IMG/VR virus record: IMGVR_UViG_3300042804_000010
Length of the DNA stretch: 36,614 bases
Reading direction: 5' to 3' (one strand)
Source: a virus
Part shown: piece by piece, positions 26,533-31,009 of the stretch
Layout: the number at the start of each line of letters is the position of its first letter
How positions within the stretch are numbered: the first letter of the stretch is position 1
The notes under the pieces: generated by a model
Told to the model about the DNA's origin: nothing
Databases searched by the model: none
Seen by the model: the letters and a program-made list of their open reading frames with translations, nothing else
Translations under genes and position numbers: made by a program

Positions 26533-29463
26533 TTAAGATTTTTTAATAGCTTGTCTAAGAGTTCCATTTCTCATAATATCTCGGCCTACAACATTGATAA
26601 TTGCATCCGGATTTCTACTAACATATTCAGCAAATGATTGAGTATCAATGGCAGTAATGTCGAATATATTTATTGGCGCTGAACCACCACCATTTTGTAA
26701 TCCTTTTACCTGGTCTTTATTTAGCACATATTCGCCATTTTCTAAAATTGCAGGCACTTCATTACTTTTAAGGCCGATTCCTCCACCTTCGTGATACCTC
26801 TGCATTTTTGCAATAGCATTAGCTGGGCTAACAAAACCTCCTTCATGGAAGGTTGGAAGATTTAAACCGCCTAAAGCATAATTAACTATAGGGCCAACAA
26901 CAGCTTTTTGTAATACCATTGAAGCAATTTGATCAGCTATATTGTCGAATACATCTCCTAAGTCTTCGCCTCTAGCTATTGCATCTGATAAGCCAGTTAT
27001 TAAATCATCTTTCCAATCAACAAATTTCTGGTTAGCTTCTTCGATTTCTAGTCCTAAATCAACAAAAGCATCAGTCATCCAGTTGATAGATTTGGCTCCT
27101 TCTTTTGAATCGCTTTCTCCAGTATAGCCAGTAGCTGCATTTCTTCCCATTCTTCCGAGATTGGCAAGATTAGTTGAAAAGTCATTAGGATCGCTTTCTG
27201 CTTTTAATGTTTCATTTATTTTTTCTCTAATTCGCCGCCATTCATCAGTGTCTTTTTCATATTGTTTTAGACGCTCTCTTAAATATTTTCGATATTGAGT
27301 TTCAGATATTTTACCCATTTCAAAGCGGTTTTCCATTTTCTCTCTTTCAAGTTGAAGTTCTTTTTTATTATATTTTTCAATAATATCTAATCTTTTTTCT
27401 CGATAAATTTTTGTGAGAGTGGCTGTATCCTGGCCTTTTTCCTGCATCAATTCTTTTTCAGCTTCATACTGCTGCTCTAATTGAGCAAGTTCTCTTTCTT
27501 TACCATCTTTTTTGAGAAGCTCAAGCTCATTTTGCAATTGTTCTTCCCTTTCAATAGCAGCCTCTTTGCGGCGCTCTGCTTCCTCTTCTTCCTGTTCGTT
27601 AACTTCTTCAAGATAATCTTTATACTGGTTATTGTAGAATTGCTCAACCATTTCTTTTAATTTTTCTTTTTGTTCAGCTGTTGCATCTTTGAGATTATCA
27701 ATTCTTTCAAATTCACCATACATTTTATTTTCTAATTTAGCCCAGGCTTTTTCTGAGTCATTAGACATATTTTCTACTTCTTGCTCAAAATTATATGATT
27801 CTATTTCAGCTCTTAATTCATCAATGTAATTTTTGTAATCGCTTTGATCAGATGTTGAACCTCCGCCACCGCCACCAGATAAATCTACTTCTTCTAATTC
27901 ATTGTTAGTTTCTTCAATTTCTTGCAAAGCCTTTTCAGTCTCATCTAAATCTTTTTTTAGATTATTCAATCTGTTTTGTGATTCGCTTATAGAATATTTT
28001 TCACCTATTATGGAATCTTCGCTTGCCCCATTTCTGCGAGCCTCTAATCTCCGTTCTTCTTTTTGGATGTCAGATTCAAGTAGGTCTTTTCTTCTTTTAA
28101 GTTCGGCTTCGTTTAGCGATTTAACATTTCGCTCCATAAATTTAAGCTGCTTGTTTCCCTCGTAAATTCTTTTTGCAAGAAGGCCAAAGCCTACTATAAC
28201 AGCTCCGCCGATCATATAAGGATTTAAAGCTGCAGTTAATCCGCCGGCTCCGTTAATTACATTTGTTAAAGAGCTCAATGTAAGAGATAAGTTTCCGGTA
28301 ATGCTTAATACTGGTCCTAAAGCAGCCGCCACTCCTGCACCAAAAATAACCATGTCTTGCTCTTCTTCTGATAAGTCATTGAAAGCATCTACTACATCTA
28401 TGACATTTTCCTTTATTTGAGTCATTATTGGTTCTAGTTCTGCACCTAATTCAGCTAAAGATTGCTCTAAATCATAATTAGCTTCTGCACTTTCTACAAG
28501 TGCTTCATTATTATCTTTATACTGCTCATATACATCTGATAGTCCGGTATTGGCAAGAGTCTGCATTACATAATCAGTTGCTTTGCCGTTTTCTTTTGCA
28601 GTCTGCAGCCCTTCATTAAAATCATCTAAATTAATACCTAATCTTGACAGCATTTCATCAAATTGACCAACTGACTGTCCCGATCCAATAGTTTCCTGGA
28701 TTGATTCAGATAAATTTTCAAACTTCAATGTGTCTGGGAACTGTATAACAGCACCAGCTATATCATCAATAACACTTGATAATTGTTCATCTCTGAAACC
28801 TGCAGCTAACAAACTGGATAATCCCTCAACGTTAGAATCTAATTCGCCAGTAACGGCGTTAAGATCTGACATATATCCGTGCATTTCATCAATACTTACA
28901 TTTGCAGTTCGAGCGTTATTTTCAAGAGTCGAAACTTCTTTTCTAAAATCTCTTGTTCCTTCTGTAAGCGCAAAAAAGGCAGCTGTAATAGGTAAAGTGA
29001 CATGAGTATTAAGGTTATCACCGATTCCTTTCATTCTATTCCCGAACTTTTCCATGCCGTCCGCAGCTTTTTGCATCTTTCTGCTAAATTCATTCGCTTT
29101 TCTTTGGGTTTTCTCGAGTTCATCTGTAAAACTTTCAAGCTGATCTTCAGTTTTAATCAGCTCTCTGCGATATTCCCGGTATTCCTTTTCTCCAACATCT
29201 CCAGACTTATATTGTTTCTGCATGTCTTTTTCAGCTTGTTTTAATACATCAAGTTTTTCTTTAGTTTGCTCAACTCTTTCTGTAAGAATATCCTGTTTTT
29301 GAGCCCAGAGTTCAACTGAGTCTGGATTGAATTTTAATGCTCGATTAACCTGGTATAATTCCCGGCCAATTTTCCTTGATTGAGAGCGAATATCTTTAAG
29401 AGCTTTGTCAAGACCTTTCGTCGATGCTCCAATTTCTACAGTTATACCTTTTTTCTGAGCCAC
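26533..29463 (-). CDS. Tail tape measure protein
   Basis: 976 aa, long coiled-coil/charged central region, GGGGGG linker, hydrophobic segments; GTG start preceded by GGGAGGTGA; sits between chaperone and tip genes. Confidence 0.85.
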   Translation of the reverse strand: MAQKKGITVEIGASTKGLDKALKDIRSQSRKIGRELYQVNRALKFNPDSVELWAQKQDILTERVEQTKEKLDVLKQAEKDMQKQYKSGDVGEKEYREYRRELIKTEDQLESFTDELEKTQRKANEFSRKMQKAADGMEKFGNRMKGIGDNLNTHVTLPITAAFFALTEGTRDFRKEVSTLENNARTANVSIDEMHGYMSDLNAVTGELDSNVEGLSSLLAAGFRDEQLSSVIDDIAGAVIQFPDTLKFENLSESIQETIGSGQSVGQFDEMLSRLGINLDDFNEGLQTAKENGKATDYVMQTLANTGLSDVYEQYKDNNEALVESAEANYDLEQSLAELGAELEPIMTQIKENVIDVVDAFNDLSEEEQDMVIFGAGVAAALGPVLSITGNLSLTLSSLTNVINGAGGLTAALNPYMIGGAVIVGFGLLAKRIYEGNKQLKFMERNVKSLNEAELKRRKDLLESDIQKEERRLEARRNGASEDSIIGEKYSISESQNRLNNLKKDLDETEKALQEIEETNNELEEVDLSGGGGGGSTSDQSDYKNYIDELRAEIESYNFEQEVENMSNDSEKAWAKLENKMYGEFERIDNLKDATAEQKEKLKEMVEQFYNNQYKDYLEEVNEQEEEEAERRKEAAIEREEQLQNELELLKKDGKERELAQLEQQYEAEKELMQEKGQDTATLTKIYREKRLDIIEKYNKKELQLEREKMENRFEMGKISETQYRKYLRERLKQYEKDTDEWRRIREKINETLKAESDPNDFSTNLANLGRMGRNAATGYTGESDSKEGAKSINWMTDAFVDLGLEIEEANQKFVDWKDDLITGLSDAIARGEDLGDVFDNIADQIASMVLQKAVVGPIVNYALGGLNLPTFHEGGFVSPANAIAKMQRYHEGGGIGLKSNEVPAILENGEYVLNKDQVKGLQNGGGSAPINIFDITAIDTQSFAEYVSRNPDAIINVVGRDIMRNGTLRQAIKKS

Positions 29464-29467
29464 TTAA

Positions 29468-29682
29468 TCACCTCCCGAAATGGTTTTGGAAACTTTGCGG
29501 AGTTCCTTGGGGTTCAGATATTTTCTTTTCTTCTTCAATATCTTCGCCAAAATAAATTCTTTGTAATCTTAAAAAATCTAATAAATGTATATAATTTAAT
29601 TCATCGATAGAATAATTCAATCTTTTAGCAATAGATAATATATATAAGTCTAATCTATCTATGTTTTTTTCAGTTTTTTTTT
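29468..29682 (-). CDS. Candidate -1 frameshift extension of the tail assembly chaperone (GT-like product)
   Basis: Slippery A-run (plus-strand T9 at 29674-29682); the -1 frame is open for 70 codons (KKTEKNIDRLDLYILSIAKRLNYSIDELN...PQSFQNHFGR) and ends at TGA 29468-29470, overlapping the tape measure RBS and start. Confidence 0.5.
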
Positions 29683-30099
29683 ACTCTTTTTTTCATCTTT
29701 ATTGTCTTCAAATTCTTTACCACTGAAATTTTCTTCTAATCTTATAACTAGATCCACAAGCCAGTTGAGATTAAGTAAGTTCGGTTTATCAAATTGATTA
29801 AGCCACTCATCATAAGTAGGAAATTTAAAAATGTCATTATCTGCTTTGTTGAGACAATAAACAAATTCTAGCAGCTCATCAGATATTTTTTTGATTTCAT
29901 CCTGCTCTTTTTTAATTTCTCTAAAATCTCCAGTTTCATAATTTTTATATTTTTCTTGAATGCCGCCAACTTTGGCGACCGCTTTCCCTACTTCTTCTAA
30001 AAAGTTTTTATCAAAATTATCTCTGTAAAGTTTTGGGACTAAGGCGGAAAACCTCAGTCCCAAAGTATGATCCCATATATTAATCTTTTCCTGCAGCAT
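29659..30099 (-). CDS. Tail assembly chaperone (G-like)
   Basis: 146-aa acidic protein between major tail and tape measure genes; ends with a Lys run encoded by an A9 tract four codons before the stop. Confidence 0.65.
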   Translation of the reverse strand: MLQEKINIWDHTLGLRFSALVPKLYRDNFDKNFLEEVGKAVAKVGGIQEKYKNYETGDFREIKKEQDEIKKISDELLEFVYCLNKADNDIFKFPTYDEWLNQFDKPNLLNLNWLVDLVIRLEENFSGKEFEDNKDEKKSKKKLKKT

Positions 30100-30109
30100 T
30101 AATTATCAC

Positions 30110-31009
30110 CTACACATCAGTAGTTGAAGGAACTGAATCAAAGAAGTTGGCATAACCAGGGTCATTTTCGAATATTTCTCCCATGACTCTGCGTGCTGAT
30201 TCTTCAACAAACATTGTCAAGTTAAGAGTTTCTGTATCAAATGTAACTGAGTCTTCATTAGTATTATTATCTTTTGAAGGTCTAGAAGCTTTAGTTCTCC
30301 AAAAAACAAATCTCATATCTTCTTCATTTCCGTTTATTTGAGCCATTAAAGCAAATTCTTTTGGCTCATCATCTGCGGATTCAACAATCATTCCATTGGA
30401 GAAAACTGTTTTTCCGAGCATTTCAGCTTGAATTTCTCTAGGGATGAAACCAGCTTCAATAGAGCCTGTGTATCCATTGTTAGTTTCTTCTTCGAGTTGT
30501 TTAGTGTCATCTCCAAATAATTCAGCTGTGTCACCTTCTGGATCTGCTGCAAAGTTAATAACCCCTGGGATTTGTTTCACTTTACCATATCCAGTTGTTC
30601 CAGCAGTGACAGCTGCAGAACTCCCCATTGTAGCTCCGGTTGTTCCCGTGTCAGTGAATGCAATTTCTAAAGTAGAATCATTTTCTTGCACTACTTTAGT
30701 TTTAAGGTATATAACACCTTTATCGTTTCTAGCATCAAAAACTGGACTAATGATATCATCATTGTTTAAAACATTGACAATTGCAGATGCAACTTTGCTC
30801 ACTGTAGTATGAGTTTCACTTGCTAACGGAACTACTACAGAATGAGGAGAATCTGCTCCAAGCAAAGTCCCTGCTGTAACTTGAATCTCTATTTCTCCAT
30901 CTGTAGAAGGTGCCGCGGTAACTTCAATTTTTTCAGCCTGCGCTTCTCCTTTAAAAGCTATGTGGAGATTTCTTAATCCCCATGTACCTTTATTTGACAT
31001 AAATTTCAC
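30110..31009 (-). CDS. Major tail protein
   Basis: 299 aa, Thr/Gly-rich beta protein immediately upstream of the chaperone and tape measure genes. Confidence 0.7.
   Translation of the reverse strand: MKFMSNKGTWGLRNLHIAFKGEAQAEKIEVTAAPSTDGEIEIQVTAGTLLGADSPHSVVVPLASETHTTVSKVASAIVNVLNNDDIISPVFDARNDKGVIYLKTKVVQENDSTLEIAFTDTGTTGATMGSSAAVTAGTTGYGKVKQIPGVINFAADPEGDTAELFGDDTKQLEEETNNGYTGSIEAGFIPREIQAEMLGKTVFSNGMIVESADDEPKEFALMAQINGNEEDMRFVFWRTKASRPSKDNNTNEDSVTFDTETLNLTMFVEESARRVMGEIFENDPGYANFFDSVPSTTDV

What the first reader, a model, noticed from the sequence alone, without database searches (positions are those of the whole stretch)
29468..29682. Candidate programmed -1 ribosomal frameshift producing a GT-like tail chaperone fusion
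The chaperone ORF ends four codons after an A9 run (slippery A AAA AAA context). In the -1 frame a 70-codon ORF opens within the A-run and terminates at TGA overlapping the tape measure start, matching the conserved G/GT arrangement upstream of tape measure genes.
Basis: partly seen in the sequence, partly recalled or inferred. Interest (0 to 1): 0.6.

Follow-up and report, generated by a model that had tools for sequence, protein, structure and literature searches.

The report
Phage tail chaperone G/GT frameshift site
A Halanaerobium prophage makes its tail assembly chaperone in a short and a long form by slipping back one base on a strictly conserved run of nine A's just upstream of the tape measure gene, which is a new example of a well-known phage trick.

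Summary
On the minus strand, the 146-codon ORF between the major tail protein and tape measure genes carries AGT AAA AAA AAA CTG (A9, 29682-29674) four codons before its stop. The -1 frame is closed by TAA just before the run, then open for 70 codons to TGA 29470-29468. That TGA lies 4 nt upstream of the tape measure GTG and does not overlap it. All 31 related loci (G protein 49-99% identical) have exactly AGT-A9-C. The neighbouring A7 runs, the 0-frame tail and the flanking linker all vary. Only the -1 frame downstream is under purifying selection (pN/pS 0.37, no stops; other frames 1.05 and 1.26, 20-48 stops), and this includes 21 codons with no start codon of their own. No downstream RNA structure exists or is conserved. 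The last 20 residues of the extension co-vary with the type of major tail protein (r=0.92) and not with G, as the lambda gpGT model predicts. This is a G/GT-type chaperone pair. The unresolved point is whether the shift is ribosomal (A_AAA_AAA) or comes from RNA polymerase slippage on A9. It is a new member of a known kind, of moderate to low interest.

The parts
30110..31009 (-). Major tail protein gene (299 aa), immediately upstream of G
   Evidence: phrog_88 major tail protein, E 8.7e-29. Its C-terminal type co-varies with the C-terminus of the T extension.
29659..30099 (-). G ORF: tail assembly chaperone, short form (146 aa, stop TAG 29661-29659)
   Evidence: ORF list. phrog_709, E 1.3e-8, matched by all 15 family members. 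The AlphaFold model (pLDDT 79) has as best BFVD matches proteins annotated as tail assembly chaperone, E 9e-4, TM 0.50-0.58. Residues 129-146, which carry the slip site, are predicted disordered.
29674..29682 (-). A9 run, the recoding site. 0-frame codons are AAA AAA AAA; the perfect X_XXY_YYZ heptamer A_AAA_AAA is 29680-29674.
   Evidence: Sequence. Exactly AGT-A9-C in 31 of 31 family loci. The codons are invariant although only 8 of 45 invariant-residue columns in G keep one codon. No A10 or A8 variant of the site was found in public contigs.
29681..29683 (-). TAA in the -1 frame just 5' of the run; the T frame opens only inside the A run
   Evidence: Sequence; conserved in all relatives as part of the invariant AGTAAAAAAAAAC.
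29468..29680 (-). T extension: -1 frame ORF, 70 sense codons plus TGA. 68 residues (from ACT 29674-29672) are added to G residues 1-142 to give a 210-aa GT fusion.
   Evidence: Translation. Conserved 69-73-codon -1 ORF in all relatives. pN/pS 0.35 in the 21 codons upstream of the first possible start, and 0.37 against 1.05 and 1.26 for the other frames.
29468..29530 (-). C-terminal ~20 residues of T (EKKISEPQGTPQSFQNHFGR): presumed adaptor matched to the major tail protein
   Evidence: Three sequence types track three major tail protein types across 15 loci: r=0.92, Mantel 0 of 5000, r with G 0.06.
29664..29670 (-). Second A7 run (G_AAA_AAA) inside the overlap; not conserved, at most an auxiliary slip site in this phage
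   Evidence: Relatives 99% identical have CTGAAAGAAACA and others have CTGAAAATG.
29686..29692 (-). In-frame A_AAA_AAG heptamer 5' of the A9; a -1 slip here meets TAA 29683-29681 after two codons (dead end); not conserved
   Evidence: Sequence; relatives have GAAGAAAACAGT here.
26533..29463 (-). Tape measure protein gene (976 aa, GTG start). Its SD GGAGGTGA (29475-29468) contains the T stop codon.
   Evidence: Several tape measure PHROGs, E down to 2.7e-38; sequence.

Best explanation
The 146-aa ORF and the 70-codon -1 ORF are the G and T parts of a lambda-type tail assembly chaperone of a Halanaerobium siphovirus prophage. Most expression events end at TAG 29661-29659 and give G. A minority shift to the -1 frame on the A9 run and give a 210-aa GT fusion (...SKKK|TEKNIDRLDL...HFGR). 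By analogy with lambda, G and the G part of GT coat the tape measure protein, and the T part recruits the major tail protein through its C-terminal ~20 residues. Neither protein is expected to end up in the virion. The most likely mechanism is tandem -1 slippage of two Lys-tRNAs on A_AAA_AAA (29680-29674) without any stimulatory RNA structure. It may be helped by the rare 0-frame CTG codon that follows. RNA polymerase slippage on the same A9 probably adds to the yield. Shown here: the anatomy, the conservation, the coding constraint on the -1 frame, the absence of RNA structure, and the covariation of T with the major tail protein. Inferred: that the fusion is made, its proportion, the binding partners, and which polymerising machine slips.
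For: The gene lies between the major tail protein and tape measure genes in a complete siphovirus tail module. The heptamer A_AAA_AAA is in the correct phase within the A9. AGT-A9-C is invariant in 31 of 31 loci spanning 49-99% G identity, while the flanking linker, the nearby A7 runs and the length of the 0-frame tail (4, 7 or 10 codons) vary. The four codons AGT AAA AAA AAA never change, although only 8 of 45 (G) and 4 of 14 (T) invariant-residue columns keep a single codon. The other KKK tripeptides in the window are interrupted by AAG. The -1 ORF is conserved and is the only frame under purifying selection, including the 21 codons that precede any start codon. There is no SD before the internal TTG 29620. 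It is the only homopolymer of 9 or more bases in the window, against 6.5 expected. The C-terminus of T co-varies with the major tail protein type independently of G. This includes locus L035, where G is only about 25% identical and T lies in another frame. That matches the lambda model in which T binds the major tail protein (PMC5009743). The fold of G is closest to proteins annotated as tail assembly chaperones. A_AAA_AAA is a documented -1 PRF site, and phage chaperone sites gave 6-7% in reporters (PMC3711429). The 0-frame CTG is the rarest Leu codon (6%) and the -1 frame ACT is the commonest Thr codon (52%).
Confidence: 0.82

Rival explanations
1. Same G/GT products, but the shift is mainly transcriptional. 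RNA polymerase slips on the T9 template and makes a subpopulation of A10 mRNAs, which standard translation reads straight from G into T. A8 and A11 transcripts would give harmless G variants ending ...SKKN or ...SKKKN, because the third frame reads AAC TGA.
For: Nine A's or T's is the classic length for efficient bacterial RNA polymerase slippage, for example Thermus dnaX (PMC5009743; PMC3711429). All nine A's plus the flanking AGT and C are invariant in 31 loci, two A's more than a ribosomal heptamer needs. No stimulatory RNA structure is present. Reporter yields rose with run length: A7 10%, A9 40%, A11 63% (PMC3711429). The third frame stops at once in most relatives (A9-C-TGA or A9-C-TAA).
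Against: It cannot be told apart from ribosomal slippage by sequence, because the products are identical. The first AAA may be conserved simply as a Lys codon whose third base is the X of the heptamer. The distant Blautia phage relative manages with A7 (GCA AAA AAA GGC). No phage tail chaperone expressed this way turned up in the searched literature. The slippage behaviour of Halanaerobium RNA polymerase is unknown.
Confidence: 0.3
2. There is no recoding. T is an independent small protein (50 aa here) started at the internal TTG 29620 (ATG in most relatives), as gene callers annotate it. The overlap with G is incidental.
For: Automatic gene calls in relatives give separate 50-60-aa ORFs. Most relatives have an ATG at that position preceded by GGGAAAAGA.
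Against: The 21 codons of the -1 frame upstream of that start are conserved at protein level (TE..DRLDL.I.S..KR) with pN/pS 0.35 and contain no conserved start codon. In the window the candidate start is TTG with no SD. The -1 frame opens exactly inside the invariant A9 in every relative. This does not explain the nucleotide-level invariance of AGT-A9-C.
Confidence: 0.05
3. The split is a DNA-level artefact or switch: a sequencing or assembly error in a homopolymer, a frameshift mutation of an ancestral single gene, or phase variation by replication slippage.
For: Homopolymers are prone to error and to indels (PMC3711429).
Against: The run is exactly A9 in 31 independent loci from an isolate genome, IMG/VR and several metagenome sources. 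Searches for the site with A10 gave 37 metagenome and 1 IMG/VR matches, and with A8 gave 5 IMG/VR matches. None of these encodes G or T, whereas the A9 pattern returns 13 IMG/VR matches, 12 of them on contigs already found as family loci. No fused protein of about 210 aa was found among 5.8 billion protein clusters.
Confidence: 0.02

Closest known systems
Phage lambda gpG/gpGT tail assembly chaperones and the conserved G/GT frameshift of long-tailed dsDNA phages (Levin 1993; Xu, Hendrix, Duda 2004, 2013, 2014, as summarised in PMC5009743)
   Same: Two overlapping ORFs lie between the major tail protein and tape measure genes. The second is in the -1 frame and lacks its own start. The slippery heptamer is near the end of G. 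No strong stimulatory structure is present. The arrangement is conserved despite sequence divergence. The T part is matched to the major tail protein.
   Different: The slip site is A_AAA_AAA inside A9 rather than G_GGA_AAG. There is no detectable sequence similarity to lambda G or T or to any Pfam Phage_TAC family. The host is a halophilic anaerobic Firmicute (Halanaerobium). The yield may be far above lambda's ~3%, judging from A9 reporter data.
Programmed transcriptional realignment on A9/T9 runs (Thermus thermophilus dnaX, Shigella mxiE and spa genes, IS elements)
   Same: A homopolymer of nine A's is conserved at nucleotide level and links two frames without RNA structure.
   Different: Not shown for any phage tail chaperone in the literature searched. 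Here a perfect ribosomal heptamer is also present, so the mechanism is ambiguous.
E. coli dnaX / IS911-type stimulated -1 frameshifting
   Same: A lysine-codon slippery heptamer is used.
   Different: There is no downstream stem-loop or pseudoknot and no conserved upstream SD-like element. The Z base is A rather than G.
Lactococcus phage p2 ORF12 (PDB 3D8L), tape measure chaperone
   Same: Same genomic position and a small, mostly helical protein.
   Different: The structural match is not significant (Foldseek rank 9, E 2.5, TM 0.28 and 0.42).

Membership tests
G/GT-type tail assembly chaperone with programmed frameshift (Xu et al. 2004) | Two ORFs located between the major tail protein gene and the tape measure gene | tested here: met
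   Major tail protein 31009-30110 (phrog_88), G 30099-29659, T 29680-29468, tape measure 29463-26533 (tape measure PHROGs). The order is the same in all relatives.
G/GT-type tail assembly chaperone with programmed frameshift (Xu et al. 2004) | The second ORF overlaps the end of the first in a shifted frame and has no convincing start or SD of its own | tested here: met
   The -1 frame opens at 29680 inside the A9, with a 22-nt overlap. The first possible start is TTG 29620, without an SD. The codons upstream of it are under purifying selection.
G/GT-type tail assembly chaperone with programmed frameshift (Xu et al. 2004) | Slippery sequence X_XXY_YYZ in the 0-frame phase within the overlap | tested here: met
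   A_AAA_AAA at 29680-29674 in phase.
G/GT-type tail assembly chaperone with programmed frameshift (Xu et al. 2004) | The arrangement and slip site are conserved in relatives while the proteins diverge | tested here: met
   31 of 31 loci have AGT-A9-C with G identity down to 49%. T-frame pN/pS is 0.37 against 1.05 and 1.26 for the other frames. Distant relatives keep a G/T pair with other sites or frames (L017 with A7, L035 in the +1 frame).
G/GT-type tail assembly chaperone with programmed frameshift (Xu et al. 2004) | The T part is matched to the major tail protein (in lambda it binds gpV) | tested here: met
   This is covariation only. Identity of the T C-terminal 20 aa against the major tail protein C-terminal 60 aa gives r=0.92, Mantel 0 of 5000, and 0.92 after removing G. 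Physical binding was not testable.
G/GT-type tail assembly chaperone with programmed frameshift (Xu et al. 2004) | The fusion protein is actually produced at a fixed low ratio; G and GT are absent from virions | not testable with these tools
   Needs proteomics or western blots of induced lysogens.
Curated tail assembly chaperone sequence families (Pfam Phage_TAC_*, PHROG 'tail assembly chaperone') | Significant profile match of G or T | tested here: not met
   No Pfam hit for G, T or any of 15 family members. G matches phrog_709 and T weakly matches phrog_3033, both labelled 'unknown function'. There were no PDB sequence hits.
Tail assembly chaperone fold | Structural similarity to known or annotated tail assembly chaperones | tested here: inconclusive
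   Model pLDDT 79, pTM 0.74. In BFVD the top two hits and 7 of the top 19 are annotated tail assembly chaperone, best E 9e-4, TM 0.50-0.58. Against solved structures there was nothing significant.
Structure-stimulated -1 PRF (dnaX / IS / viral type) | Stem-loop or pseudoknot 5-9 nt downstream, or an SD-like element upstream | tested here: not met
   The window fold has z = +0.55 to +0.65. Seven relatives have z from -1.0 to +1.5 with unrelated shapes. RNAalifold predicts 0 pairs. There was no Rfam hit. The upstream GAGG is not conserved.
Programmed transcriptional realignment site | Homopolymeric A or T run of 9 or more, conserved in length | tested here: met
   Exactly A9 in 31 of 31 loci. 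No A8 or A10 version of the site was found.
Programmed transcriptional realignment site | Heterogeneous run length in transcripts but not in DNA | not testable with these tools
   Needs cDNA or direct RNA sequencing.

The most novel reading that the evidence does not exclude
The invariant A9, two A's longer than any ribosomal heptamer requires and with no RNA structure, is a programmed transcriptional slippage site. In that case this phage clade sets its G:GT ratio at the RNA polymerase, probably at tens of percent rather than lambda's ~3%. This would be the first tail assembly chaperone shown to be recoded transcriptionally.
Probability: 0.3. Interest if true: 0.55.

Novelty: new member of a known kind. 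Interest (0 to 1): 0.3.

Why it matters
The practical value is for annotation. The G/T pair of this Halanaerobium phage clade, and of gut Lachnospiraceae phages that share phrog_709 and phrog_3033, is currently labelled 'hypothetical' or 'unknown function' and split into two genes. It should be annotated as one tail assembly chaperone with a -1 recoded extension. The biology is expected, but two points go a little further. First, the C-terminal ~20 residues of T behave as an exchangeable adaptor that tracks the major tail protein type independently of G, which is comparative support for the lambda model outside Proteobacteria. Second, the strict conservation of nine A's makes this clade a clean system for asking whether phages ever use RNA polymerase slippage to set the G:GT ratio.

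Tried and rejected
1. Nucleotide and protein searches of the GenBank phage collection with the region and the fusion found nothing at normal thresholds. Only weak hits (E about 0.1) to gut phage hypothetical proteins at the same position appeared.
2. The downstream stimulatory structure was rejected after single-sequence folds of the window and seven relatives, RNAalifold and Rfam.
3. The first AlphaFold run on the shallow alignment gave pLDDT 50 and was discarded. The second, with distant relatives added, was usable.
5. Pfam gave no tail chaperone family for G, T or relatives.
6. The search for related loci with the diverse alignment A3 failed because no conserved stretch was available. P0015 had no relatives in IMG/VR. 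L033 (P0017) shows no obvious T ORF and was not pursued.
7. The second A7 run and the upstream A_AAA_AAG were considered as the real site and rejected because neither is conserved.
8. DNA-level A8 and A10 variants were searched for. All pattern matches were unrelated low-complexity DNA.

Full report
**What is in the sequence**

All relevant genes are on the minus strand. The order is tail completion protein (31722-31330, HK97 gp10-like), tail terminator (31325-31014), major tail protein (31009-30110, phrog_88), a 146-aa ORF that I call G (30099-29659), and a 976-aa tape measure protein (29463-26533).

G ends with ...GAT GAA AAA AAG AGT AAA AAA AAA CTG AAA AAA ACA TAG.
- The A9 run is 29682-29674.
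- The G stop TAG is 29661-29659, four codons after the run.
- In the -1 frame, TAA (29683-29681) sits just before the run. The frame is then open for 70 codons (KKTEKNIDRLDLYILSIAKRLNYSIDELNYIHLLDFLRLQRIYFGEDIEEEKKISEPQGTPQSFQNHFGR) up to TGA 29470-29468.
- The heptamer A_AAA_AAA (29680-29674) is in the correct X_XXY_YYZ phase.
- A -1 shift there gives a 210-aa fusion made of G residues 1-142 plus 68 residues.

- The TGA does not overlap the tape measure GTG (29463). It lies 4 nt upstream, inside the tape measure Shine-Dalgarno sequence GGAGGTGA.
- The fusion is 210 aa, not about 207.
- Two further A7 runs flank the A9.

**Is it more than chance?**

The window is 35% G+C and A-rich on this strand. 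Even so, the A9 is the only homopolymer of nine or more bases in 36.6 kb, whereas a second-order Markov model expects 6.5 such A runs on this strand. Among 1244 open stretches in the -1 frame of the window's minus-strand genes, the mean is 6 codons and the longest is 46. The chance of 70 open codons is about 2e-5. The two other Lys-Lys-Lys tripeptides in the structural genes are interrupted by AAG.

**Origin and relatives**

- G is 99% identical to a hypothetical protein of Halanaerobium saccharolyticum, on a 37-kb contig of strain MA284_T2. The window is therefore a Halanaerobium prophage or phage.
- GenBank phages contain nothing close.
- The G family is small: 14 clusters among 5.8 billion. 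An exhaustive profile search added a handful of distant relatives.
- I collected 31 loci with G 49-99% identical from ENA, Logan, JGI, IMG/VR and GTDB.

**Comparative test of the recoding site**

- Every one of the 31 loci has exactly AGT-A9-C at the end of G.
- The acidic and basic linker just upstream varies freely. The neighbouring A7 runs are absent or interrupted even in relatives 99% identical (CTGAAAGAAACA).
- The 0-frame tail after the run is 4, 7 or 10 codons of unrelated sequence.
- In contrast, the -1 frame is open for 69-73 codons in all loci and encodes a conserved protein (TE..DRLDL.I.S..KR....ELN..HLLDF....IHFG).
- Among columns where the residue is invariant, only 8 of 45 in G and 4 of 14 in T also keep the same codon. 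Yet AGT AAA AAA AAA never changes, so the constraint acts on the nucleotides.
- Downstream of the G stop, the T frame has pN/pS 0.37 and no stops. The other two frames have 1.05 and 1.26, with 48 and 20 stops.
- The 21 codons between the A9 and the first possible start (TTG 29620 here, ATG in most relatives, which gene callers use) have pN/pS 0.35 and no conserved start codon. That stretch can only be translated by ribosomes arriving from G.
- The site is stable at DNA level. Patterns for the same site with A10 (241 million metagenome records and IMG/VR) or A8 (IMG/VR) matched only unrelated DNA. The A9 pattern returned 13 IMG/VR matches, 12 of them on contigs already found as family loci.
- No fused protein of about 210 aa exists in the protein collection.

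**No stimulatory RNA**

- The 84-103 nt after the run fold no better than shuffles in the window (z +0.55 and +0.65).
- Six relatives behave the same way (z -1.0 to +1.5), and their minimum-energy shapes are unrelated.
- RNAalifold on nine sequences predicts no pair at all, and Rfam finds nothing.
- The SD-like GAGG upstream in some relatives is part of a poly-Glu linker and is absent from the window.

**What the parts do**

- G matches phrog_709, as do all 15 family members tested. T matches phrog_3033 weakly (E 0.003-0.28 in three of the family sequences tested, no match for the window's own T), and a Blautia phage T matches it at E 6e-24. Both PHROGs are labelled 'unknown function'. No Pfam tail chaperone family matches.
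- With distant relatives in the alignment, AlphaFold gives a usable model of G (pLDDT 79, pTM 0.74). It has an N-terminal beta hairpin followed by helices, and residues 129-146, which carry the slip site, are disordered.
- Its best matches among predicted viral structures are proteins annotated as tail assembly chaperone (E 9e-4, TM 0.50-0.58; 7 of the top 19).
- Solved structures give nothing significant. Phage p2 ORF12, a tape measure chaperone, appears only at rank 9 with E 2.5.

The most informative functional clue is covariation. The last ~20 residues of T come in three types, and each type goes with one type of major tail protein:

| T C-terminus | Major tail protein |
|---|---|
| ...PQGTPQSFQNHFGR | ~299 aa, ...FFDSVPSTTDV |
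| ...KPRKATQADIDKMMGRR | ~302 aa, ...FFDAVSMPNFAA |
| ...PANQNDINSLLS | ~195 aa, ...FFDDVTLPTVTP |

- Across 15 loci the two identity matrices correlate at r=0.92 (Mantel 0 of 5000). T C-terminus against G gives r=0.06.
- G genes 84-89% identical carry different T ends when the major tail protein differs (L001 against L007 and L013).
- Locus L035, whose G is only ~25% identical and whose T lies in the +1 frame, has the same T end and the same major tail protein type as L001.
- This is what the lambda model predicts, in which the T domain of gpGT binds the major tail protein and the G domain binds the tape measure (PMC5009743).
- The caveat is that there are only three types, so the number of independent events is small.

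**Mechanism**

Both candidate mechanisms give the same protein (...S-K-K-K-T-E-K...).

In favour of ribosomal -1 slippage:
- The heptamer is perfectly phased.
- A_AAA_AAA is a recognised -1 site, and phage chaperone sites gave 6-7% in reporters (PMC3711429).
- The next 0-frame codon, CTG, is the rarest Leu codon here (6%), while the -1 codon ACT is the commonest Thr codon (52%).
- A distant Blautia phage relative uses only A7.

In favour of RNA polymerase slippage:
- Nine A's is the classic length for efficient bacterial transcriptional slippage (PMC5009743).
- All nine A's plus both flanking bases are invariant, although seven would do for the ribosome.
- There is no RNA stimulator.
- In E. 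coli reporters the yield rose from 10% (A7) to 40% (A9) (PMC3711429).
- A_AAA_AAA is a comparatively weak ribosomal site in E. coli (PMC5009743).

I consider recoding at the A9 well supported (about 0.8). The split between the two mechanisms is open, and both may contribute.

**Rivals rejected**

- Independent initiation of T is contradicted by the constrained codons upstream that have no start, and by the missing SD.
- A sequencing error, pseudogene or phase variation is contradicted by 31 independent A9 copies and the absence of A8 or A10 variants.
- Chance is excluded by the frame statistics and the conservation.

**Comparison and verdict**

This works like, and by position and architecture belongs to, the G/GT tail assembly chaperone class of long-tailed phages (Xu et al. 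2004). It is not a sequence member of any curated chaperone family. It is a new member of a known kind, found in an under-sampled host group. Two modest extras are comparative evidence for a T adaptor specific to the major tail protein, and a nine-A site that could be a case of transcriptional recoding of a tail chaperone. I found no published case of that. Interest is moderate to low.

Noticed in passing
L035 1501-2098 (and L036), IMG/VR contigs 3300027082_000247 and 3300027580_000122: In this distant relative (G ~25% identical), a clearly homologous T domain (SNDRLDLTIIAMAKKM...KPRKATQADIDKMMGRR) lies in the +1 frame of G, not the -1 frame. The overlap is 83 nt and GGG AAA C is a candidate site. 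The same T domain therefore seems to be reached by a different shift (+1 or -2) in another clade.
   Followed up: partly
L017 2501-3036 (Blautia phage NatCom_27009, PV036437.1 34190-34725): Two 'hypothetical protein' genes directly after the major tail protein form an unannotated G/T pair. G ends GCA AAA AAA GGC (A_AAA_AAA) and the -1 ORF has 65 codons. These correspond to phrog_709 and phrog_3033, both labelled 'unknown function' in PHROGs, so those two PHROGs appear to be the G and T parts of a tail assembly chaperone.
   Followed up: partly
window 29686-29692 (-): An in-frame A_AAA_AAG heptamer, the most shift-prone site in E. coli, lies 4 nt upstream of the A9. A -1 slip there runs into TAA 29683-29681 after two codons and would give a truncated G. 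It is not conserved in relatives.
   Followed up: yes
window, whole (1-36614): Long homopolymers are depleted. There is one run of 9 or more against 6.5 A runs of that length expected on the minus strand, and 25 against 39 expected for runs of 7 or more. The other KKK tripeptides are broken by AAG. This suggests selection against slippage-prone runs everywhere except the G/T junction.
   Followed up: partly
window 30110-31009 (-) compared with L007 720-1304, L013 1354-1941 and L016 525-1112: Major tail proteins of this phage group come in two sizes, 296-302 aa and 194-195 aa. The long forms seem to carry an extra N-terminal segment of roughly 100 residues. The neighbouring G genes can be nearly identical across the two forms, which indicates mosaic exchange.
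   Followed up: no
window 29284-29463 (-) and the homologous tape measure N-termini in L001-L016: The first 60 residues of the tape measure protein are 78-100% identical across nearly all relatives, even where G is only 50-65% identical. L011 is the exception at 48-58%.
   Followed up: no
L031 1444-1452: A second A9 run occurs in one relative inside the tail terminator gene (GAT GAA AAA AAA ATA). Both alternative frames stop at once. A9 runs are therefore not absolutely excluded elsewhere in this phage group.
   Followed up: partly
L026 about 1000-1090: The C-terminal end of the major tail protein reads out of frame (…KKTIEKASLMLYQCLILLHRRW) compared with the near-identical L012 (…KADNEAVYNAFFDAVSMPNFAA). 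This is probably an assembly indel or a real frameshift in that contig.
   Followed up: no
P0014 / L016 1125-1601: JGI names this G homologue 'F0F1-type ATP synthase beta subunit', which is a misannotation of a phage tail chaperone.
   Followed up: no
L033 1501-1941 (IMG/VR 3300035102_000521): A relative with G ~30% identical ends GTC GAA AAA AAT GAA (A_AAA_AAT possible), but neither alternative frame encodes a recognisable T domain (29 and 41 open codons). This lineage may lack the extension, or T may lie elsewhere.
   Followed up: no
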